64,000 nucleotides of DNA from Candidatus Babeliales bacterium. Lineage in GTDB: Bacteria > Babelota > Babeliae > Babelales > JABCYS01. The stretch spans positions 256,866 to 320,865 of the forward strand of contig JAFGJD010000004.1 of assembly GCA_016929235.1 (NCBI GenBank). The letters are read 5' to 3'. The translations under genes were made by a program, and so were the position numbers. The notes under the pieces were generated by a model. It had not been told where the DNA came from and made no database searches. It saw only the letters and a list, made by a program, of their open reading frames with translations. This document shows positions 31,322 to 46,912 of this stretch, in pieces; within the stretch, counting starts at the first letter, position 1, and each line of letters starts with the position of its first letter.

Positions 31322-34300
31322 GTGAAATATAGCGGGAGTTTTGTTTGTGGTGTGTTGTTTGCAACCTCATTCGGCATGATGTACGGAATTACGTTTATGG
31401 AGAGGGCTCATCCTGATAATACTATTGAACTCCCAGCAGAAATAGTTGCAGCGTCACCCTATTTAAGTCAGCAACCAGATGCAAGGATAGAGGTTTCCAC
31501 CGACCTATTTACTCTTTTCAGGGATTATACAGAAAATAGGACAGAAAGCGCTCAAGCGTATTTAAGTGCCAATTTTCAGAGATTTAAAGAGAACGCTGAG
31601 GTCCTTTTGAATGAAGCCATTCAATTGGGATATGAGCCTATTACGAGAATAATTGCGTTGGGTGATGCTTATAAAGATCGAGTATTCAGGAGAGTTGAAG
31701 GTTGGACCAGAACATATGCTCCAGATGCAGTTCAGTCTGAAGTAGTATCAATTCCATGGGCCACACGGGCGGAATTTTTTGATGCATATCAGGAATATGC
31801 TACAACGCATATGAGATTATCTCCAAAGGATCTTAAAACACTTATCAAGGTCAATGTGGTTGCCATTGATCCGCTAGGGCAGACTGGTACTCCCGTAGAG
31901 ATGACGTACGAGCAGGTTGAATATTCAGCTCTCTGGGTAAGGGGTATTGCGGCCGATAGAAGAATTTACGTTTCCAGTCCCGAGGGTCAGCTTGATGGTA
32001 CAACTGCATCAATTGGGAATGTTGTTGATTTCTTGAGAAAGGTTCCCAATTTTAGGTCTCAAGGAAAAATAAGTGGTAGTTGGACGCAAGTGAGAGGATT
32101 CAGTTTCATTTTGTCGCAACTGTATATCCCTACAGATGTGCAGCGCCTGCTCATAGAGAGCCCTGGATTTATTGAATCAATTTCAGATGTTGGTACTATT
32201 TCGCGCTTTTTTCGCAACCTAAACCTAGTGACTCCGCTTGATCAACGACCAGTAGCTTCGACATTCCTCGATGATATGAAACAGCGCCAGTTAGATGTTG
32301 CTCATAACCAAGCGTATCTACGCTTGATTGACAGATATATGCGATTGGCAGAGCAGGTTGAAGGAGGTTTGAATGGCGAGGATCGATGGGTGATAGAGCT
32401 TCTAAAGTCATTTGAGCCGGATGTAAGAGAGGCACTAATTACGAACTATGAAGGAACATTTAGCAAGAAATTATATCTTGAACAGCCAAATGTTCGTCTC
32501 ATTAGTTCGAATAATGAATACATTCTCATGGATGACCAAGTTGCTAGCAAATCTAGATATCTCAGAGAGAGAATGCGTACAGCCGAGCAGTCTTCGGGGC
32601 AAGAAGGCCGGCAAGAGTATCTTTTCAGAGAAGCGGATTTTACTACAAGTGATCTTCAGCTTGCCACAGGGCTTATGACGGCACAGGCATGTGCACGAGA
32701 AGGCACATCATATAGTGATTTGAGAAAATTTGTTATGACTGAGCAGGGTGAGGGCATGTCTGATTGGTTGCTTCGTACAGGATACAATGTCTTTGTGGAC
32801 TATGTTATGCCCCTTGCTGGAGCCTATGCAACGTACAGAACGGCGACAACGAATGCTAATCCGCTTGCTGCTGCTGGAGTGGGAACTGCGACGGCTAGCT
32901 ATACTGGATTGCGACGTTTTTGGAAAAAGTATTTTGCTGACCCAGTAGCTCCAAAGAATGCAGAGGCTGCTTTAAAAAGTCATGATGCTTGGGGTTATGA
33001 GCTTGCATTTGTGCGTCAGGCATTGATTCCAGAATATGTTGATCGATTTGCTCAGCGACAAAGAGGTGGTAAGACCTTAGCAGAATTGAATGAGATTGGG
33101 CTTTCTAGGTTGCAGCGCTATTTTAATGAGGTTGGATTTAGCGAGGGCATCTTGGTTGATATAGGTCGTTATTACTTTTTCAATAATTTTGATGCAGTGC
33201 GCCAATACTTTATAGCGAAAAGGGCTGAAGAAGGAGGTACTGAAATTGCTGACAAGGGAATCAAGCCTCTTGAGTTTGGAATAAACTATTCTATGTCTGT
33301 TGGAGAGCGGTTGGATTGGGTATGGATGCGCCCCCTTGCCGCGCACCAGGGGGGTAGGGTTCTTGATTTAAGTTGGCAAATGATTGGTAGTCTGCGTGGC
33401 ATAGAAGGAGTTGAGGGAATCACAAATGTTGTAAAATTGACTCTGGAAGAAAACGCACTGGTTAGTCTTGAAGGCTTAGGAGAATTACAAGGTATTTCAG
33501 AGATTCTTTGTTCGCGTAATTCTCTAGCATCTGTTAATCCAGAGGATCTTCCTGCTAGTTTGACACGACTTGATTTAATGGGTAACCGCCTTACTTATAT
33601 TGATATTGAGGGCATCTTGGCGCGATGCCCTCAATTGAAATCTATTGATCTGAACGGCAATAATCTTCCTTCTTTTGAGGTGGAGCGTATTGTAAAGGTG
33701 TGGGAAGCTGTGCGCAAGGCGAGTCCTGAGCGTGGTATGATTGAGCTGAAGGCGAATGCTTTAGATGGCGCTCAAAATAGGGGGCGTTTTGAAAGTATTT
33801 TATTTGCTCTGAGGAATCTTATGACACGTATTACCGAAGGTGCTAAGACGCTGTGGAAGCGAACTAAGACACAAGATGTGGTTAGTAGAACTGCAATAGC
33901 TACAGAGCAGGAAGCTTTGGCTAACCCAAGTGAAGCTGATGCTCTCCTAGCACAGGGACAAGCAGTCTACGATGCAATGACGGCTGGTGATATTGATGGC
34001 ATTGAGCGCGAGATTGATACTCTGGCAGGGGCTGCGAAACTTACCGAGGAAGAACGTAGAGATCTTGCTGAACAACTCGACGCAGCAACGCTTGACACAG
34101 CGGCTATTGCAGAGCTCCCAATAATTGAACCGGTTCCAGAGGGAGATGGTGGTAGCGAAGCTGCTACCTCTGAAGCCAGTTTTGAATCGGCATATCAGGT
34201 TCCTGCAATGGAAGGTATTTGGAATGATTACGATGTTAGCATGCGAGAGCTTAATAGGACTCAAGAAATAGAACGTGTAGCGTTACGTGAGGCTAAAGAG

Positions 34301-34507
34301 CAGGAGCTGCGTGATGTTACAGAAGAAGCTCGTCAACAGGAAATTGAACAGCGGTATGAAGGACAAATGCGCGAAGTGAATGAACGACAAGCTCGTGAGC
34401 GAGCTGAGTTATCACAGGAACGAGAACGACGTCTTGAAGAACAGCGACGGCAGGAGCGGGAGCGTGTCGAGGCTTCACGTGAACCGAGGGCATCGGCCGG
34501 TGTTTAA
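31322..34507 (+). CDS. large secreted LRR protein with E/R-rich coiled-coil tail
   Basis: 1061-aa ORF with a GTG start preceded by GAGGAG. Hydrophobic N-terminus. LRR block approximately LDLSWQMIGSLRGIEGV...LDLMGNRLTYIDI...IDLNGNNLPSF. C-terminal ~100 aa are E/R/Q-rich. Confidence 0.6.
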   Translation: MKYSGSFVCGVLFATSFGMMYGITFMERAHPDNTIELPAEIVAASPYLSQQPDARIEVSTDLFTLFRDYTENRTESAQAYLSANFQRFKENAEVLLNEAIQLGYEPITRIIALGDAYKDRVFRRVEGWTRTYAPDAVQSEVVSIPWATRAEFFDAYQEYATTHMRLSPKDLKTLIKVNVVAIDPLGQTGTPVEMTYEQVEYSALWVRGIAADRRIYVSSPEGQLDGTTASIGNVVDFLRKVPNFRSQGKISGSWTQVRGFSFILSQLYIPTDVQRLLIESPGFIESISDVGTISRFFRNLNLVTPLDQRPVASTFLDDMKQRQLDVAHNQAYLRLIDRYMRLAEQVEGGLNGEDRWVIELLKSFEPDVREALITNYEGTFSKKLYLEQPNVRLISSNNEYILMDDQVASKSRYLRERMRTAEQSSGQEGRQEYLFREADFTTSDLQLATGLMTAQACAREGTSYSDLRKFVMTEQGEGMSDWLLRTGYNVFVDYVMPLAGAYATYRTATTNANPLAAAGVGTATASYTGLRRFWKKYFADPVAPKNAEAALKSHDAWGYELAFVRQALIPEYVDRFAQRQRGGKTLAELNEIGLSRLQRYFNEVGFSEGILVDIGRYYFFNNFDAVRQYFIAKRAEEGGTEIADKGIKPLEFGINYSMSVGERLDWVWMRPLAAHQGGRVLDLSWQMIGSLRGIEGVEGITNVVKLTLEENALVSLEGLGELQGISEILCSRNSLASVNPEDLPASLTRLDLMGNRLTYIDIEGILARCPQLKSIDLNGNNLPSFEVERIVKVWEAVRKASPERGMIELKANALDGAQNRGRFESILFALRNLMTRITEGAKTLWKRTKTQDVVSRTAIATEQEALANPSEADALLAQGQAVYDAMTAGDIDGIEREIDTLAGAAKLTEEERRDLAEQLDAATLDTAAIAELPIIEPVPEGDGGSEAATSEASFESAYQVPAMEGIWNDYDVSMRELNRTQEIERVALREAKEQELRDVTEEARQQEIEQRYEGQMREVNERQARERAELSQERERRLEEQRRQERERVEASREPRASAGV

Positions 34508-39760: not shown

Positions 39761-39876
39761 TTCTATGTCCAGTTGCGAACCTGTTTGGTCCGTAGATCCA
39801 CATCGTCATTGCCCTCATGTTCTTCTGTGTATATCATCATTATGAGAAGGGTGAATGAGTACATAAGGGTATTGTT

Positions 39877-40107
39877 ATGGTCTTAAGCCGTTGTATATTA
39901 ACAACTTTACTCATCGGCGTGGTTACGCTGTTATTTGTGTCAAGTGCCAATACTGTCTCCAGCGTAGAAGCTCGTAGTCCTGAAGAGAGTATAGAGCATG
40001 CATCTCCGATGGATACAAAAGAAGAAAAAGTCCGTCCTGAGACTTATGAGATGCAGGCTTTGCTTATAGTGACAGGTTTTACGTTGGCTTTCCTTGGGCT
40101 TGTTTAA
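39877..40107 (+). CDS. small signal-peptide/TM protein (paralog A, N-terminal part)
   Basis: 76-aa ORF with signal MVLSRCILTTLLIGVVTLLFVSS and C-terminal TM helix ALLIVTGFTLAFLGLV. Its upstream DNA is homologous to that of 42058..42435. Confidence 0.45.
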   Translation: MVLSRCILTTLLIGVVTLLFVSSANTVSSVEARSPEESIEHASPMDTKEEKVRPETYEMQALLIVTGFTLAFLGLV

Positions 40108-40151
40108 GGCAAGAAAGAGCTCTCAGGGTATTAATAAAAGAAGGCCTTACA

Positions 40152-40337
40152 TTGTTGGAGTACGACTCTGGCGATACTAATGTTGAGCAATGTATGAATT
40201 TGCCCCGTGCAAAGCGGAATGAGCTTATTGAATGCTTTCGCCTGATGCTGCGGGCACAGGAACAGCAAGCAGCTGAGCTAGCCTTGCTAGAAAAGTTGCA
40301 ACAGCTGTGGTTGACTGCATTCAATGCCCTAGAATAA
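40152..40337 (+). CDS. possible detached C-terminal part of paralog A (TTG start) or pseudogene fragment
   Basis: This frame is open from 40050. DSGDTNVEQCMNLPRAKRNELIE resembles LSPNNVDDIVRRYRIARRRELNI of paralog B. It lies in a different frame from 39877..40107. Confidence 0.3.
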   Translation: MLEYDSGDTNVEQCMNLPRAKRNELIECFRLMLRAQEQQAAELALLEKLQQLWLTAFNALE

Positions 40338-40445
40338 GATGATACAGCCAAGCTTGGGCAGAGGGGTTGTTTAAAATTGCGCTAGGCGTAAAGCCTTGCA
40401 AATACTTCTTTGTTTTTTAGATAATGTGTGTAAAAGGAGAAGTAT

Positions 40446-41678
40446 ATGAAGAAGAGCGTGGTAGTGGTGGGAGTGCTAGGATGTCTCCTTATGGTTCCGA
40501 TAGTATTTTGGTCCATGGAACAAGGTGGACCCGCTCGTGCGGGGAAGGGCAAAGAAAGAGAAGAGATTGAGGAAGTGATCCAAGCAGAGGCATCGCTGTG
40601 GGAATGGTTGGTTGGAGCATTGTGGGAAGCGGGAAGCGCCTTATTCCCTGTGGTAAGGGGAAGGTCAACTGCAGCAGATGATGAGTTGAGGGAATGGGCA
40701 TTAGCAAATCCAAATGATCCAAGGTCAATAGAATATTTTATATATACGGGTGCACAGCCAGGTCCAGCTGAAGTTGCTCACGCGAGAGAAGAAGTGGAAG
40801 AAAGCAAGGAAGAGATGATAGAGCAGCTGGCGGCCGGAGAGGCGGGTCCTTCAGGAGAGGCAGAACCTGAGATAGTTCGCTTATTAAGAGCTGCACAGGA
40901 ACGTCTTCCAGTACCCGAAAGACCGACACGGGGAGATGTCCCCAGTTTACAGGATCAAATAATTAATCGCATAGTTGATTTGATATCCGTTGATCAAGAG
41001 ATATGGCGTCAGATACGAGATAAAGAACCATATTTGCCAGTGGCATTTAAACAATTAATTGAAAAAAAATATCTTGAACGTTATGAGCATAGCTTACCTG
41101 AGTATGATTATGCCATACATGATTTAAATGATTTAATTGAAGAGGGAAGTGGTAATGAGCCGCGACTAGTTATCAACCATCCGTGGCTTGTGAGCTTAGT
41201 GGGCCTTACCCAGATTAAAGGAATTAGCAAGGTTCGCGAGTTGGTAATACAAGGTGCAACTATTTATGAGATTCCTTCTGAAATAGGTGATTTGGTACAA
41301 TTACGAGAGCTCAATTTACGAGGTACAAGAATAACACAGTTGCCCGCAGAGATTGGTCGCTTAGCCAATTTGCAAACTCTTAATTTAGAAGACACAAGAA
41401 TAACACAGTTGCCCGTAGAGATTGGTCGCTTAGCCAATCTGCAAACTCTTGATTTAGGAAACACAAGAATAACACAGTTGCCCGCAGAGATTGGTCGCTT
41501 AGCCAATCTGCAAACTCTTGATTTAGGAGACACAAGAATAACACAGTTGCCCGCAGAGATTGGTCGCTTAACCCAATTAAGCTATCTTAATTTGATGAAT
41601 ACCCCACTGGCTCGAAATCAAAAAGAGATACATAAAATTAGAAAATTGCTGCCTGAGGGGTGTTGGTTTTTGTTCTGA
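40446..41678 (+). CDS. secreted leucine-rich-repeat protein (eukaryote-like 23-aa LRRs)
   Basis: AGGAG Shine-Dalgarno sequence. Signal MKKSVVVVGVLGCLLMVPIVFWS. C-terminal repeats TRITQLPAEIGRLANLQTLDLG. Confidence 0.8.
   Translation: MKKSVVVVGVLGCLLMVPIVFWSMEQGGPARAGKGKEREEIEEVIQAEASLWEWLVGALWEAGSALFPVVRGRSTAADDELREWALANPNDPRSIEYFIYTGAQPGPAEVAHAREEVEESKEEMIEQLAAGEAGPSGEAEPEIVRLLRAAQERLPVPERPTRGDVPSLQDQIINRIVDLISVDQEIWRQIRDKEPYLPVAFKQLIEKKYLERYEHSLPEYDYAIHDLNDLIEEGSGNEPRLVINHPWLVSLVGLTQIKGISKVRELVIQGATIYEIPSEIGDLVQLRELNLRGTRITQLPAEIGRLANLQTLNLEDTRITQLPVEIGRLANLQTLDLGNTRITQLPAEIGRLANLQTLDLGDTRITQLPAEIGRLTQLSYLNLMNTPLARNQKEIHKIRKLLPEGCWFLF
41325..41600 (+). repeat. 4 x 69-bp in-frame tandem repeat inside the LRR gene
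   Basis: Units start at 41325, 41394, 41463 and 41532. Unit 1 vs unit 2 differ at 5/69 positions; unit 2 vs unit 3 at 2/69. Unit 4 diverges after about 40 nt. Confidence 0.9.
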
Positions 41679-42057
41679 AATTGTTCGTGTTATGCTAAAA
41701 ATGTAGCGAATTTTTTGCTTTTTGAAGAACACCAGTTGTTCTCTACTGGTAGAGTTTATGTATTCTTGAATAGTAGCAAAAAGCTCTTGCGTGTTTATGG
41801 ATGCATTTAAGGTAGGGTTTGTTGTTCGTGTTTTTTAACTTGGTGTTTGGGTATAATGGTTTACAAGATAATTTGCTGAGTTGCATGTTTTTTGAATTCC
41901 GTAAAGATCTGCCTAGTGCATTGTCCTGTGGTAAAGCCAGGTGCGAACAGATTTGGTGTGTAGATCTATACTTTTTGACACACCCCTTATTCTCGTGTTT
42001 TACTGCGTATATCATGATTATGACAAGGATGATTCAGTCCAGAAGGGGGTTTTCGTT

Positions 42058-42435
42058 GTGAATTTTAATCACTGTATGCGCGGGATAATCGGGGTGGGCT
42101 TATTGGTCATTGGAATTGAATCGACAGTTTATACTGTTGAGTCCAGCCCTTCTGTTCCGGAGGTCTCTCCATTGTCGTCTGAGGTGGAAAGGGAGAATTT
42201 GATGGGTCCAAATGAAGCAAAGAGCTATGGATCGCACGTTGCTTTAGGTATGGTGTTGATCATCCTAACCGCCTGCGGTCTGGCTTGGAAAACGGAGACA
42301 GATGCTATTAAGCGTCTTAGCCCTAATAATGTGGATGACATTGTACGCAGATACCGGATCGCTCGTCGTCGTGAATTAAATATAGGGAATGAAGCACTCC
42401 CAGCGACTACGGGGTTTTTGAATCATCATGCATAG
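42058..42435 (+). CDS. small signal-peptide/TM protein (paralog B)
   Basis: GTG 42058 is preceded by AAGGGGG and aligns with the ATG of paralog A. It has a signal, an S/E/P-rich linker, TM helix VALGMVLIILTACGLA, and a basic tail. The 3' end overlaps sbcD by 29 nt. Confidence 0.45.
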   Translation: MNFNHCMRGIIGVGLLVIGIESTVYTVESSPSVPEVSPLSSEVERENLMGPNEAKSYGSHVALGMVLIILTACGLAWKTETDAIKRLSPNNVDDIVRRYRIARRRELNIGNEALPATTGFLNHHA

Positions 42436-43648
42436 ACGATTCCAGTTCAAGGGCTTGTTTGAGAAGATCCTGCTTGCGCTTTTTGAGTGTTTCCTGAGAC
42501 TCTAGATATGTTTCCAATAATTCTTGTGTGTTCATCGAGACGTTCATAGCCGAAGTTCGCCTCTCGCGTTTTTCAGCCTGTTGGATAGGGATAATACCCG
42601 TTATGTAATGGGCTTGAGAGCAGGCCTTTTGAATCTCATACAGATCAATAGTGTCTCGTTGGCCGGGTGGCAGGGTATAGATGATCTTAACGATGGTATC
42701 TCTCAGATCATGGTCTGCCAACGATTCAAGGAGCTGTTCTGTCTGATCTCGATTTGCCGATAGGGTGCATTCAACTTGTACAAACCGCCTTGTGGGGGTT
42801 GGTATGAACTTGTAGGATGTCTTTCCTTTGGCCTCAATCGTGACAAGGCAGAATCCCTTTTCTTCCTTGCGCTCTCCGAAATCTATCCGCTCTACTGATC
42901 CAGAATAAACCAATGGGGGATGGCCGTTTTTATTTAAATTTTGGTGGCGGTGTAGGTGACCTAAGGCAACGTAATCAAAGGGTGATATGGCAAGATGCGA
43001 TGGTAAAAAGGTTGGGTCGGTGCCAAGGAGGGCGCGCTTTTCCGAGCCTGAAAATATCCCTTCACTTACGGTCAGATGCCCAGCCATGACTGCCGGAATA
43101 GATGGATCTAGTTGTTGCGCAAGATTTTGAATAATGGCTATGACTGAGCGGGTAATATATGAAGTGATCTCTTCAGCTGATTTTGAGAGGTGCTCTTTCG
43201 AGATACTGATAGTATTACGAGTTGGCCATGGAATACCAACGATGTTTACGGGACCGTTCTTTGTTTTGAGTTGAATGATACGAGGCTTGGAAACAACATA
43301 CATAGTCGGAAGTGGCACATCACCAAATACGTCGAGTGCGCTTGCCTTACCAAAGCTGAGAGGATTATCGTGGTTTCCAATGATACTGATTGTTGGAATA
43401 TTGGCCTCGTGGAGTCGTAAAAAACATTTCATGAGCAATTGTTGCTGTGTTGGGCTTGGATGCGCTGTTTTATAGGCATCACCTGCAAATAGGAAAAAAT
43501 CAACTTCTTGTTCTATCGCAACATCAATACATGCATTGAGTGCCTTGTTGAAATCAAGCAAACGCGTATGGATTCCAGTTTCGGGATCTATCTTGCCATA
43601 ATTCTCCACTCCAAAATGGATATCAGCAGTATGTACAAAGCGAATCAT
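42407..43648 (-). CDS. sbcD: exonuclease SbcD / Mre11-family nuclease
   Basis: Calcineurin-like phosphoesterase motifs: FVHTADIHFG, FAGDAYK, GNHD, and GHLH. Confidence 0.85.
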   Translation of the reverse strand: MIRFVHTADIHFGVENYGKIDPETGIHTRLLDFNKALNACIDVAIEQEVDFFLFAGDAYKTAHPSPTQQQLLMKCFLRLHEANIPTISIIGNHDNPLSFGKASALDVFGDVPLPTMYVVSKPRIIQLKTKNGPVNIVGIPWPTRNTISISKEHLSKSAEEITSYITRSVIAIIQNLAQQLDPSIPAVMAGHLTVSEGIFSGSEKRALLGTDPTFLPSHLAISPFDYVALGHLHRHQNLNKNGHPPLVYSGSVERIDFGERKEEKGFCLVTIEAKGKTSYKFIPTPTRRFVQVECTLSANRDQTEQLLESLADHDLRDTIVKIIYTLPPGQRDTIDLYEIQKACSQAHYITGIIPIQQAEKRERRTSAMNVSMNTQELLETYLESQETLKKRKQDLLKQALELESSMHDDSKTP

Positions 43649-44778
43649 GAAGCTCCTGAAGTCAATGATTGACGGTGCTTTTGTGAAGATATTTTTTCTT
43701 CTGATGAATTCTTTGAGATAATGCGTTGAGTTACTTTTTGGAATGATTCTACGTGCATATGTTCTTCGACGATAGAGTATTTTGAAATATGAGTGTGCGA
43801 ACCAATATGACCATGCGATTGAATTTTCGAGTCATCGATAATGCAATGTGGTTCCGTGGTTACATAATCTCCGAGTATACTATTGGTAATGACTGCATGC
43901 GCACCAAGTGAACAATGAGCTCCGATGGAAGTGGTTCCTGTGATGTAAGCACCAGCGCCAATGATGGTTCCAGGTTCGATAGTTACAGAGAGATCAATGT
44001 GTGTTGTCAGTGGCATCATGAATCGTACACCATTTTGCATCCAGTGCTGAATCAGCTCAGAGCGTTTAATGTGTTCCACTTCCCATAATTCCTTAAACGT
44101 ATTTATACCGCGAATGAAATCGTAGGGCACAACGGTTGTTGTAACGTTTTGACCGGCATCACTGGCGAGTTTAGCAAGGTCTGTCAGATAGAATTCTTGT
44201 TTGCTATTATTTTGATCAATCTCTTGAATATATGTTTCAAGGAACGCACGATTAAATAGATAGATACCTGCATTAATGTACGGGGCTTCATTAATGCTTC
44301 CTGTGTAATCACGTGCTTCTACAATGCTGATGTGTGAATTGTTTTGTACAACGCGACCATAACCTGATGGCTCGGTATGGTGTGATGTCACAAAGCTCAT
44401 AACCGCATCGTTGATTATGTGTTTGTTGTAGAGTGTTTCAATGATGTCACTTGTAATGAGTGGCATATCTCCATTCATAATTAAGATGAGATCTTTATTC
44501 CATAGCCGTTGCGTGCATGCAACGGCGTGTCCGGTTCCCAACTGTTCAGTTTGCTCTACGATAGATATAGGAATCTTGAGATTGTTATTGAGAGTGTGAA
44601 TCAACACATCTTTTTGGAAACCAACAACAGCGGTCGTTGGTATGTTCAGGGCTTCGAGGAGGCGAGTGCCGTAAAGAATCATTTCTTGGCCGCATATCTT
44701 GTGGAGGAGTTTGCTTGTTCCTGTTTTAAATCGTGTCGATTTCCCTGCCGCCAGAACGATTGCTTGAACATTATTCAT
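43645..44778 (-). CDS. glmU: GlmU-like sugar-1-phosphate nucleotidyltransferase with short left-handed beta-helix domain
   Basis: N-terminal AIVLAAGKSTRFKTGTSKLLHKICG and hexapeptide repeats in the C-terminal third. At about 377 aa it is shorter than typical GlmU. ATGA overlap with sbcD. Confidence 0.7.
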   Translation of the reverse strand: MNNVQAIVLAAGKSTRFKTGTSKLLHKICGQEMILYGTRLLEALNIPTTAVVGFQKDVLIHTLNNNLKIPISIVEQTEQLGTGHAVACTQRLWNKDLILIMNGDMPLITSDIIETLYNKHIINDAVMSFVTSHHTEPSGYGRVVQNNSHISIVEARDYTGSINEAPYINAGIYLFNRAFLETYIQEIDQNNSKQEFYLTDLAKLASDAGQNVTTTVVPYDFIRGINTFKELWEVEHIKRSELIQHWMQNGVRFMMPLTTHIDLSVTIEPGTIIGAGAYITGTTSIGAHCSLGAHAVITNSILGDYVTTEPHCIIDDSKIQSHGHIGSHTHISKYSIVEEHMHVESFQKVTQRIISKNSSEEKISSQKHRQSLTSGAS

Positions 44779-44917
44779 CAGATGTCTCCATTGTAGGACA
44801 TAATACGTGTCAAAAATCGCCACAGTCTAGCATAGGATATTAGTGAAGGGTAGTTCTAAACATGGTATTTAAAAGCTGAAAAGACAGGGTATACTAGGGA
44901 TATGCCTTTCAGATTTT

Positions 44918-45011
44918 GGAGAGATGGCTGAGTGGTCGAAAGCGGCCGCCTCGAAAGCGGTTATTCCGGATAAAACCGGGATCGGGGGTTCGAATCCCCC
45001 TCTCTCCTCCA
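44918..45011 (+). tRNA. tRNA-Ser (anticodon CGA), class II with long variable arm, CCA encoded
   Basis: Acceptor stem GGAGAGA/TCTCTCC. D arm GCT-GAGTGGTCGAA-AGC. Anticodon stem-loop GCCGC-CTCGAAA-GCGGT. Variable stem TCCGG/CCGGG. T arm GGGGG-TTCGAAT-CCCCC. Confidence 0.9.
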
Positions 45012-45670: not shown

Positions 45671-46912
45671 ATGAGGGCTCACTTAAGAACTTTGTTTTTT
45701 ATCGTACTGAGCGTTGCGCCATGTCGTGCAATGATCTATGACAATAAGTTTTTGCCTCTCGGTCCATATCGCTTTTCTCGTAAGTACACCGATTCAACTA
45801 TTGCTGTTCCTCAAGCATTCGCTATTACTGGCCATGAGTCTCATAGTGTTACTCATGAAGATGTCGCGCTATTTGGTCTTTATGGAAGTTATAATCTCGC
45901 TGCAGTGAGTAATGCATTAGGAGATGTTGGATCACCAAATCCACTGCGTAGTGAATGGCGTACGGCGACTATTCCATGGCGTATGGATGGAAAGGTCCAG
46001 GGCGGTGGTCTTGCTATTGCGTATAATCAGCCGCTAACGGATACACTTTCGTTTACTGCCAATACGATGTTTCTGCATATGAGATCTCGTATTGATTTTA
46101 CGTTGCTGACAGGTTCAGTGACTCCAACACACGTAAAAGAGGGTTCTGGTAATATTGGAGAGTTGGATCGAACGCGTCGTCAGGCGAATGATTTTTTGGG
46201 TATCACATCAGAAGTTGCAAGTGAAGCAGGTTTTGGTGATTTGGATGCTAGTGTTCGATATGGTAAAAAGTGGGATTATCCAAGGAAATTTAAAAGCATT
46301 GACGCAGGTGGGCGGTTTGGAATTATTTTCCCAACCGGTGTTCGTAGGCATTATAACAATGCAGCCTCGCTTGCATTTGGAAGTGATGGGCACTATGGAG
46401 TCTATTTTGAGGGTGACGGAGAGTTTGAGCTTAAGGAAGACATCAAATTCAGTACTTTTGCGCGTCTTACTAAGCGGGTAGGCCGTGAATTGATGCATCG
46501 TGTTCCTACGCAGCAGTGGCGAGAAGCAATTAATTACGGAGCAATTGTTGGCAAATTTAAAGTGGATCCTGGCGTTGCTTTGACGTTTGGTGCCAAGGTT
46601 GCACTTGAGGATATAAATAGAGGCTTTGGAGCGTCGGTTCGTTATATCTGGACTAAAAAGTGGTGTGATACTTGGACTGACAAACGAAGTGATCAAACTG
46701 TTGCATTTGCCAAGAACAGTATGGAATCTTTTTCTCGGTTTACGTCTGAGTATGTAACGATTGGTGCATTTTACGATTTCAGCAAACGAGTAACGGTTGA
46801 TGATACAGGTCCGCTGATCTCCCTAACATGGGACATTCCCACAACACAGCTTGGGGGTGAGGGCGTTGCTGCCATTAATCGAGTAACAGTTGGTGTAGAA
46901 TGGGATTTTTAA
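45671..46912 (+). CDS. putative outer-membrane beta-barrel protein
   Basis: Signal MRAHLRTLFFIVLSVAPCRA. Alternating beta-strand pattern. C-terminal VTVGVEWDF ends in Phe, as in an OMP signature. Confidence 0.55.
   Translation: MRAHLRTLFFIVLSVAPCRAMIYDNKFLPLGPYRFSRKYTDSTIAVPQAFAITGHESHSVTHEDVALFGLYGSYNLAAVSNALGDVGSPNPLRSEWRTATIPWRMDGKVQGGGLAIAYNQPLTDTLSFTANTMFLHMRSRIDFTLLTGSVTPTHVKEGSGNIGELDRTRRQANDFLGITSEVASEAGFGDLDASVRYGKKWDYPRKFKSIDAGGRFGIIFPTGVRRHYNNAASLAFGSDGHYGVYFEGDGEFELKEDIKFSTFARLTKRVGRELMHRVPTQQWREAINYGAIVGKFKVDPGVALTFGAKVALEDINRGFGASVRYIWTKKWCDTWTDKRSDQTVAFAKNSMESFSRFTSEYVTIGAFYDFSKRVTVDDTGPLISLTWDIPTTQLGGEGVAAINRVTVGVEWDF

What the first reader, a model, noticed from the sequence alone, without database searches (positions are those of the whole stretch)
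41325..41600. Four near-identical 69-bp tandem units encoding LRRs (recent expansion or concerted evolution)
Units start at 41325, 41394, 41463 and 41532.
- Units 2 and 3 differ at 2 of 69 nt.
- Units 1 and 2 differ at 5 of 69 nt.
- The first ~41 nt of all four units differ at only one site.

Each unit encodes TRITQLPAEIGRLANLQTL(N/D)L(E/G)(D/N), an LRR of the eukaryotic L..L..L.L..N.L..LP..IG.L type.

Nucleotide identity far above that of the surrounding LRRs implies recent unit duplication or gene conversion. It predicts copy-number variation that would alter the solenoid length of a secreted protein.
Basis: seen in the sequence. Interest (0 to 1): 0.55.

Follow-up and report, generated by a model that had tools for sequence, protein, structure and literature searches.

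The report
Recently duplicated LRR units in symbiont protein
A leucine-rich-repeat protein gene of an uncultured Babeliales (TM6/Dependentiae) bacterium carries three almost identical 69-bp repeat units plus a hybrid fourth, the ordinary footprint of recent in-frame duplication or recombination that is common in this class of host-interaction proteins.

Summary
The repeat is real. TRF reports a 69-bp period, 3.7 copies and 94% identity at 41314-41570, and it is the only strong tandem repeat in the window. It is in frame in a 410-aa ORF (40446-41678, +), which is GenBank MBN1549400.1, 'LRR domain-containing protein, Candidatus Babeliales bacterium'.

The title overstates the finding. Units 1-3 differ at 2-5 of 69 nt. 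Unit 4 shares only its first 39 nt and then diverges (13-15 of 30 identical), so it is a chimera.

Shared residues use the same codon in 18/19 to 21/21 cases among units 1-3, against 2-3 of 9-10 versus the neighbouring LRR. Protein-level constraint therefore cannot explain the identity. The explanation is recent stepwise duplication or unequal recombination.

The LRRs are the 23-residue SHOC2 / Leptospira LIC type, with a matching C-terminal cap. The N-terminal 250 aa have no detectable homologue.

The gene lies in a 2.65-kb lineage-specific insert between surA-like and sbcD genes, which are adjacent in eight related loci.

Comparable 69-bp arrays occur in homologous genes of three other lineages, so this is a known kind of feature. 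Copy-number variation and secretion could not be tested, because no close relative exists in any collection searched. Interest is low.

The parts
39761..42406 (.). Lineage-specific 2.65-kb insert between the surA-like gene (ends 39760) and sbcD (42407-43648, -). It holds the LRR gene and two small membrane-protein ORFs.
   Evidence: In L001, L002/L010, L009, L011, L012, L013, L014 and L016 the sbcD and surA2 homologues are directly adjacent. No homologue of the LRR gene, orf76 or orf164 is present.
40396..40439 (+). Promoter-like hexamers (TTGCAA, 18-nt spacer, GATAAT, at 40396-40425) and an AGGAG ribosome-binding site (40435-40439) 6 nt before the ATG.
   Evidence: Consensus scan, which found no more sites than in shuffles, so it is weak. 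The RBS was read directly from the sequence.
40446..41678 (+). Complete ORF of 410 aa. It is 100% identical to GenBank MBN1549400.1, 'LRR domain-containing protein [Candidatus Babeliales bacterium]'.
40446..40523 (+). N-terminal hydrophobic segment (MKKSVVVVGVLGCLLMVPIVFWSMEQ). It is a signal peptide or a signal anchor.
   Evidence: Kyte-Doolittle 19-residue window maximum of 2.55. It is the only such segment in the protein.
40527..41186 (+). Orphan acidic region, predicted helical (aa 28-247), with no detectable homologue.
   Evidence: HMMER against 1.84 billion representatives returned only the protein itself. There is no Pfam domain. AF2 pLDDT is below 50. Aa 160-250 score no better against LRR homologues than shuffled controls.
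41187..41324 (+). Two older, divergent LRR units (aa 248-293).
   Evidence: They differ from the array units at 33-48 of 69 nt. The AF2 beta-strand 265-268 lies inside this span; 288-290 belongs to the unit at 41256 and starts the 23-residue strand spacing.
41325..41531 (+). Three near-identical 69-bp (23-aa) LRR units, U1 to U3 (aa 294-362).
   Evidence: Pairwise differences are 2-5 of 69 nt. Codon identity at shared residues is 18/19 to 21/21. TRF score is 458.
41532..41600 (+). Chimeric unit U4 (aa 363-385). Positions 41532-41570 are identical to the head of U1 and U3. Positions 41571-41600 are divergent (13-15 of 30 identical).
41601..41675 (+). C-terminal cap, TPLARNQKEIHKIRKLLPEGCWFLF.
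   Evidence: It aligns with the cap of Leptospira LIC11098 (NNPLPS-EKIARIRKLLPQC, PDB 4U08). AF2 places helix 392-401 and strand 407-409 here with pLDDT about 88.
39877..40107 (+). Small ORF (76 aa) with two hydrophobic segments, upstream of the LRR gene inside the insert.
   Evidence: Its upstream region and start are homologous to those of the ORF at about 42059-42435.
42059..42435 (+). Small ORF with two hydrophobic segments, downstream of the LRR gene. It is listed as 41941-42435 from a GTG start. It appears to be a paralogue of orf76.
   Evidence: A 56-nt direct repeat at 80% identity links 39814-39869 to 41992-42047. See also alignment A1 and hydropathy.

Best explanation
**What it is**
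The array is the product of recent, stepwise, in-frame duplication of a 69-bp segment that encodes one 23-residue LRR. The gene encodes a lineage-specific LRR protein of an intracellular Babeliales bacterium.

**How the array arose**
The duplications most likely came from unequal homologous recombination or replication slippage between neighbouring LRR units.
- U2 and U3 are the youngest pair.
- U1 split off earlier.
- The sharp switch inside U4 at unit position 39/40 is a recombination junction with the original terminal repeat, which packs against the C-terminal cap.

**What it does**
- Each extra unit adds one strand-turn-helix coil to a SHOC2 / Leptospira-LIC-type solenoid. This lengthens the concave binding face.
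- Inferred, not shown: the protein is exported past the cytoplasmic membrane by its N-terminal hydrophobic segment and binds a host (protist) protein.
For: **Shown**
- The array is real and unique in the window.
- Shared residues use the same codon in 18/19 to 21/21 cases among U1-U3, against 2-3 of 9-10 between the neighbouring LRR (L0) and U1-U3. Protein-level constraint therefore does not explain the identity.
- U2 and U3 share C46 and G58. U1 keeps T46 and A58, the states also found in both the flanking LRR and U4. This gives the order ((U2,U3),U1).
- U4 is 39/39 identical in its head and 13-15 of 30 in its tail.
- The periodic tract is about 3.6-3.8 units, which is not an integer. At least one event therefore had a junction inside a unit.
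- The solenoid model is confident. AF2 pLDDT is about 90 for aa 280-410 (68-77 over aa 260-280), with strands at 265, 288, 311, 334, 357 and 380.
- The best PDB matches are Leptospira LIC11098, LIC10831 and LIC12759 and SHOC2, by sequence and by fold.
- The phenomenon is recurrent. Of the 120 best homologues, 26 have adjacent units at least 20/23 identical. Their genes carry 69-bp arrays of 7-9 copies at 81-87% identity in three other lineages.

**Published precedents**
- Adjacent multimerisation of LRR units in Protochlamydia (PMC2216083).
- LRR number varies from 1 to 39 within symbiont gene families (PMC4209131).
- YopM differs in its number of internal repeats among Yersinia species (PMC3518861).
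- LRR and other eukaryote-type domains are reported in TM6 genomes (PMC4776705).
Against: - There is no second genome or population sample. Neither the age of the events nor any copy-number polymorphism can be shown.
- Duplication and gene conversion leave similar footprints. The non-integer tract length needs at least one conversion or unequal-exchange step.
- Only five variable sites support the branching order.
- Export and host binding are inferred from one hydrophobic segment and from the biology of relatives. They are not shown by any test here.
- The source is a metagenome-assembled genome and the reads were not available.
Confidence: 0.62

Rival explanations
1. Concerted evolution. The four units are old, and their number has been stable. 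Repeated gene conversion between neighbouring units keeps them alike, and the last conversion tract ended at position 39 of unit 4.
For: - The periodic tract is 3.6-3.8 units, not an integer. Whole-unit duplications from a non-repetitive ancestor cannot produce that on their own.
- The boundary in U4 is abrupt: 39/39 identical, then 13-15 of 30.
- Homologous genes keep 7-9 units at 81-87% identity, which fits continuing homogenisation.
Against: - The differences are nested: U2 and U3 share two derived states, and U1 keeps the states of the flanks. Successive duplications explain this more simply.
- No orthologue exists to show that the unit number is old.
- The two processes share the same recombination machinery and are not mutually exclusive.
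Confidence: 0.25
2. Assembly artefact. The copy number, or the mix of unit variants, was created by mis-assembly of short reads or by merging of strain variants in a metagenome-assembled genome.
For: - The sequence comes from a MAG with a single 321,671-bp contig on record.
- Tandem repeats are a known weak point of short-read assembly (general knowledge).
- No independent copy exists for comparison.
Against: - The longest exact repeat inside the array is 45 nt. K-mers or reads longer than that place each unit uniquely.
- The reading frame, the 23-residue strand spacing and the C-terminal cap are all intact.
- Arrays of the same period occur in independent assemblies of homologues.
Confidence: 0.08
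3. Convergence. Strong selection on the peptide sequence, together with codon bias, produces the nucleotide identity without recent common ancestry of the units.
For: The LRR consensus positions are conserved in all units.
Against: - The neighbouring LRR shares 9-10 residues with U1-U3, but only 2-3 use the same codon.
- Non-consensus positions are also identical among U1-U3.
- The gene's GC3 (0.355) is ordinary for the window (0.370 +/- 0.040), so there is no extreme codon bias.
Confidence: 0.02

Closest known systems
Leptospira interrogans LRR proteins LIC11098, LIC10831, LIC12759 and LIC12234 (PDB 4U08, 4U06, 4U09, 4TZH; Miras et al. 2015, as cited in PMC11674859)
   Same: - 23-residue LxxLxLxxNxLxxLPxEIGxLxxL repeats that are very alike within one protein.
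- The same C-terminal cap (NPL...I.KIRKLLP.C).
- Best sequence match, E 5.5e-77, and best fold matches.
- An N-terminal export signal is predicted in some members.
   Different: - The Leptospira proteins are almost entirely LRR. This protein has a 220-aa orphan region before only about 6-7 LRRs.
- The conserved Asn is Thr in the array units here.
- The organism is an intracellular Babeliales bacterium, not a spirochaete.
- The E-value is inflated by the repeats.
Eukaryotic SHOC2 and RSU1 LRR domains
   Same: The same LRR class and curvature. JGI names several homologues 'leucine-rich repeat protein SHOC2'.
   Different: SHOC2 has about 20 LRRs and a different N-terminal region. Nothing here shows RAS/PP1-type partners.
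LRR effector families of amoeba symbionts: Neochlamydia NEX1 (F-box or RING/U-box plus C-terminal LRRs) and Protochlamydia LGR proteins
   Same: - The architecture is an N-terminal module plus a C-terminal LRR array of variable length.
- Host-associated lifestyle.
- LRR arrays grow by adjacent duplication (PMC4209131; PMC2216083).
- Many of the best hits carry U-box, RING or F-box domains.
   Different: - No F-box, U-box, RING or BTB domain is detectable here.
- LGR repeats are 28-mers.
- This is a single gene in the window, not one of a tandem gene family.
Yersinia YopM (LRR effector with variable repeat number)
   Same: A bacterial LRR protein in which internal repeat number differs between lineages (PMC3518861).
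   Different: YopM uses the short 20/22-residue 'bacterial' LRR class (from general knowledge, not tested here) and a type III secretion leader. Variation is documented for YopM and not for this gene.

Membership tests
Leucine-rich repeat domain (Pfam LRR clan) | Profile matches above the curated thresholds | tested here: met
   LRR_14 scores 102.4 bits (cut-off 40), LRR_8 74.3 bits (cut-off 27) and LRR_4 65.3 bits (cut-off 27).
23-residue SHOC2 / Leptospira-LIC-type LRR subfamily | 23-residue period with LxxLxLxx(N/T)xLxxLPxxIGxLxx | tested here: met
   Four consecutive motif matches at a spacing of 69 nt. Thr replaces the consensus Asn.
23-residue SHOC2 / Leptospira-LIC-type LRR subfamily | Solenoid with one beta-strand per repeat on the concave face | tested here: met
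   The AF2 model has strands at 265, 288, 311, 334, 357 and 380, with pLDDT about 90 from aa 280 and 68-77 over aa 260-280. Foldseek top hits are 4U09, 4U06, 4U08, 7YJW and SHOC2. This is a prediction, not an experiment.
23-residue SHOC2 / Leptospira-LIC-type LRR subfamily | C-terminal capping motif NPL...(I)xxIRKLLPxC | tested here: met
   The residue-by-residue alignment to LIC11098 covers query residues 379-405.
Symbiont F-box / U-box / RING-LRR effectors (NEX1-like) | N-terminal F-box, U-box, RING or BTB domain | tested here: not met
   - No such Pfam hit at E <= 0.1.
- The N-terminal 248 aa match nothing among 1.84 billion representatives.
- No similarity to the F-box or U-box homologues was found.
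Symbiont F-box / U-box / RING-LRR effectors (NEX1-like) | C-terminal LRR array of the same class | tested here: met
   The best hits are LRR+U-box, LRR+RING and Neochlamydia F-box-LRR proteins, at 36-52% identity over the LRR third.
Roco (LRR-Roc-COR) proteins | Ras-like GTPase and COR domains next to the LRRs | tested here: not met
   No Ras or COR Pfam hit in the query, although some hits carry them.
Variable-number coding tandem repeat (contingency-type locus) | Different copy numbers among strains or within a population | not testable with these tools
   No second copy of the gene exists in any collection searched. Reads are not available.
Variable-number coding tandem repeat (contingency-type locus) | Head-to-tail, in-frame, near-identical units | tested here: met
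   Period 69 (a multiple of 3), no indels, 94% matches. The longest exact repeat is only 45 nt.
Secreted or exported protein | Cleavable Sec or lipoprotein signal peptide | tested here: inconclusive
   - There is one hydrophobic segment, aa 1-26, after MKK.
- Cys13 lies too early and in the wrong context for the PROSITE lipobox rule (my reading of the sequence).
- No signal-peptide predictor is available here.

The most novel reading that the evidence does not exclude
The gene could be a young, fast-evolving host-targeting effector. Its orphan N-terminal 220-aa region has no homologue among 1.84 billion representative proteins. That region could be a new functional module occupying the place that F-box, U-box or RING domains hold in the homologous symbiont LRR proteins. 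In this reading, the LRR array is being re-sized by recombination and diversified on its concave face: three of the four amino-acid differences among units 1-3 fall at positions 5, 7 and 8 of LxxLxLxx, in an arms race with a protist host.
Probability: 0.1. Interest if true: 0.5.

Novelty: new member of a known kind. Interest (0 to 1): 0.2.

Why it matters
If the array really varies in copy number, it would be a small example of how intracellular bacteria of a poorly known phylum retune a host-binding surface. That process is already documented for LRR proteins of Yersinia and of amoeba symbionts. As it stands, the finding adds one lineage-specific LRR gene with an orphan N-terminal region to the list of putative Dependentiae host-interaction proteins. 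It does not open a new question.

Tried and rejected
- **Degenerate LRRs in aa 160-250.** BLASTP alignments to P0003 and P0032 ran into this region. Tested alone, it gave a best E of 0.5-0.8 against 119 LRR homologues. Shuffled controls did as well or better (best 0.06-0.3). Rejected.
- **F-box, U-box or RING domain in the N-terminus.** No Pfam hit, no homologue at all and no match to the F-box or U-box hits. Not supported.
- **Lipoprotein signal.** The VLGC at residues 10-13 lies too close to the N-terminus and is followed by more hydrophobic residues. Judged unlikely. This is my reading; no predictor was available.
- **Recent horizontal transfer judged by composition.** The gene's GC3 of 0.355 is within the window background (0.370 +/- 0.040). 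The high GC of the 5' part (0.51) goes with its Ala/Gly/Glu/Pro-rich coding and a GC3 of 0.406, still in range. There is no compositional signal.
- **Search for strains or orthologues to test copy number.**
  - Exact 39-nt unit in JGI metagenome contigs: 0.
  - Whole protein in GTDB genomes: 0.
  - Exact-protein look-up: none.
  - Protein database: a singleton cluster, with the next hit 44% identical over the LRRs only.
  - SbcD-anchored searches found only relatives with SbcD 55-63% identical, and all lack the gene.
- **Other LRR genes or coding tandem repeats in the window.** None found.
- **Rfam.** The whole-window search matched only RNase P RNA and a tRNA.
- **Enrichment of variable sites on the concave face.** Three of five variable sites fall in 15 of 69 nt, which gives P of about 0.07 by my binomial estimate. 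Not significant.

Full report
**1. The observation**

Tandem Repeats Finder reports one strong array in the 64-kb window. It spans 41314-41570, with period 69, 3.7 copies, 94% matches, no indels and a score of 458. The next best score is 46.

Pairwise differences are:

| Pair | Differences (of 69 nt) |
|---|---|
| U1 vs U2 | 5 |
| U1 vs U3 | 3 |
| U2 vs U3 | 2 |
| U4 vs U1-U3 | 15-17 |
| Preceding LRR (41256) vs U1-U4 | 33-36 |

All differences between U4 and the others lie in unit positions 40-69. Its first 39 nt are identical to U1 and U3. The 39-nt unit head occurs four times, against zero in 100 shuffles.

So the repeat is real and far beyond chance. It consists of three near-identical units plus a chimeric fourth, not four near-identical units.

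**2. Is the identity more than protein-level conservation?**

Yes. Where two units encode the same residue, they use the same codon in 18/19 (U1/U2), 20/21 (U1/U3) and 21/21 (U2/U3) cases. Between the neighbouring LRR and U1-U3, only 2-3 of 9-10 shared residues use the same codon.

The gene's GC3 is 0.355, ordinary for the window (0.370 +/- 0.040), so extreme codon bias is not the cause. The units therefore share recent ancestry or have been homogenised.

**3. History of the array**

Five sites vary among U1-U3:

| Unit position | Change |
|---|---|
| 23 | A/V |
| 46 | synonymous Leu |
| 58 | N/D |
| 65 | E/G |
| 67 | D/N |

- U2 and U3 share C46 and G58. U1 keeps T46 and A58, the states also seen in the flanking LRR and in U4. 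This gives a nested order, ((U2,U3),U1), as expected from successive duplications.
- The period-69 identity runs from about 41310 to 41570, which is 3.6-3.8 units. Whole-unit duplications from a non-repetitive ancestor give integer tracts. At least one event therefore had a junction inside a unit.
- The abrupt switch in U4 is 39/39 identical and then 13-15 of 30. An in-register unequal exchange, or a conversion tract ending there, between an array unit and the original terminal repeat would leave this footprint. That terminal repeat has to pack against the C-terminal cap.
- The present structure could equally result from an expansion or from a contraction of a longer array. This is inference.
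- Three of the four amino-acid differences fall at positions 5, 7 and 8 of LxxLxLxx, the exposed concave-face positions by general LRR knowledge. With five sites this is not significant (about P = 0.07).

**4. Is it an assembly artefact?**

This cannot be excluded without reads, but it is unlikely.
- The longest exact repeat inside the array is 45 nt, so ordinary reads and k-mers place each unit uniquely.
- The frame, the 23-residue strand spacing and the cap are all intact.

**5. The gene and protein**

The protein is 100% identical to GenBank MBN1549400.1, 'leucine-rich repeat domain-containing protein [Candidatus Babeliales bacterium]'. It sits on a 321,671-bp contig and forms a singleton cluster. 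Babeliales belongs to Babelota, also known as TM6 or Dependentiae.

- **LRR domain.** Pfam places LRR families on aa 255-393.
- **Structure model.** A single-sequence AF2 model is confident for aa 280-410 (pLDDT about 90; 68-77 over aa 260-280). It has strands at 265, 288, 311, 334, 357 and 380 and a helix-strand cap. Residues 1-250 are below pLDDT 50 and are predicted helical.
- **Closest solved structures.** By sequence these are Leptospira LIC11098 (4U08, E 5.5e-77), SHOC2, LIC10831 and LIC12759. The alignment includes the C-terminal cap: query NTPLARNQKEIHKIRKLLPEG against NNPLPS-EKIARIRKLLPQC. Foldseek ranks the same families first.
- **N-terminal region.** Residues 28-275 have no homologue among 1.84 billion representative proteins. 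An apparent extension of LRR similarity into aa 160-250 did not survive a test against shuffled controls.
- **Export and expression signals.** The only strongly hydrophobic segment is aa 1-26. It could be a signal peptide or an anchor, so 'secreted' is not established. An AGGAG lies 6 nt before the ATG. The promoter-like hits are no more frequent than in shuffles.

**6. Genomic context**

The neighbours are housekeeping genes: pheT, lspA, pgpA, two surA-like genes, sbcD, glmU and mreB.

Searches anchored on SbcD recovered Babeliales/Dependentiae MAG and metagenome loci with SbcD 55-63% identical. In every locus that spans the junction, sbcD and the surA-like gene are directly adjacent. These loci are L001, L002/L010, L009, L011, L012, L013, L014 and L016. 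None has a homologue of the LRR gene or of the two small ORFs beside it.

The window therefore carries a 2.65-kb lineage-specific insert (39761-42406). No other LRR motif occurs in the window or in L001-L006.

**7. How common is this?**

- Among the 120 best LRR homologues, 26 have adjacent 23-residue units at least 20/23 identical, and 7 have units at least 22/23 identical. This sample is biased towards repeat-rich hits.
- At the DNA level, homologous genes carry 69-bp arrays in three other lineages:

| Locus | Source | Copies | Identity |
|---|---|---|---|
| L007 | GC-rich metagenome contig | 9.1 | 85% |
| L019 | Rivularia Roco-type protein | 7.1 | 87% |
| L020 | Neochlamydia TUME1 | 7.7 | 81% |

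- Growth of LRR arrays by adjacent duplication was modelled for Protochlamydia LGR proteins (PMC2216083).
- LRR numbers from 1 to 39 occur within symbiont effector families that pair F-box, U-box or RING domains with C-terminal LRRs (PMC4209131).
- YopM differs in internal repeat number among Yersinia species (PMC3518861).
- LRR and other eukaryote-type interaction domains are a noted feature of TM6 genomes (PMC4776705).

**8. Verdict**

The array is a genuine, recent, recombination-generated expansion or homogenisation of LRR units. It lies in a lineage-specific LRR protein, possibly used in host interaction, of a Babeliales bacterium.

The mechanism and the type of protein are well known. 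What is particular here is the small, very young array, the chimeric terminal unit, the orphan N-terminal region and the insertion into a conserved gene block. Copy-number variation, export and the binding partner remain untested because no relative or read data are available.

Interest is low. This is a new member of a known kind.

Noticed in passing
window 39814-39869 and 41992-42047; ORFs 39877-40107 and about 42059-42435: A 56-nt direct repeat (80% identity) lies in the upstream regions of two small ORFs that flank the LRR gene, and alignment A1 extends the homology to their starts. Each ORF has two hydrophobic segments. They look like paralogous small membrane-protein genes, and both are absent from all related loci.
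   Followed up: partly
window 43645-44823 (-): The GlmU homologue is only 392 aa. It matches profile positions 2-356 of 452, at 257.9 bits, below the TIGR01173 cut-off of 366.85. The roughly 100 C-terminal residues present in the L001 homologue (470 aa) have no counterpart anywhere in the window. Part of the acetyltransferase domain therefore seems to be missing.
   Followed up: partly
L001 13522-16389 (+) and 16646-17956 (-): In the closest long relative (a 1.76-Mb contig), two large ORFs are inserted between the surA-like genes and lspA of the same conserved block. By eye they look like ankyrin-repeat proteins. Different lineages may therefore have acquired different eukaryote-type repeat genes in this neighbourhood.
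   Followed up: no
window 45671-46912 (+) and 31322-34507 (+): A 413-aa ORF with no NCBIfam match sits next to mreB here, and its homologue (about 30% identity) lies next to mreB in all seven related loci where it was found. A 1061-aa ORF upstream of pheT also has no NCBIfam match.
   Followed up: no
window 56534-56884 (-) and 44918-45008 (+): Bacterial RNase P RNA class A (225.8 bits) and a 91-nt tRNA were the only Rfam matches at gathering threshold.
   Followed up: no
window 40446-40940: The first 165 codons of the LRR gene have a GC of 0.51, against 0.43 for the window. They encode an acidic stretch rich in Ala, Gly, Pro and Glu. GC3 (0.406) is still within the background range.
   Followed up: yes
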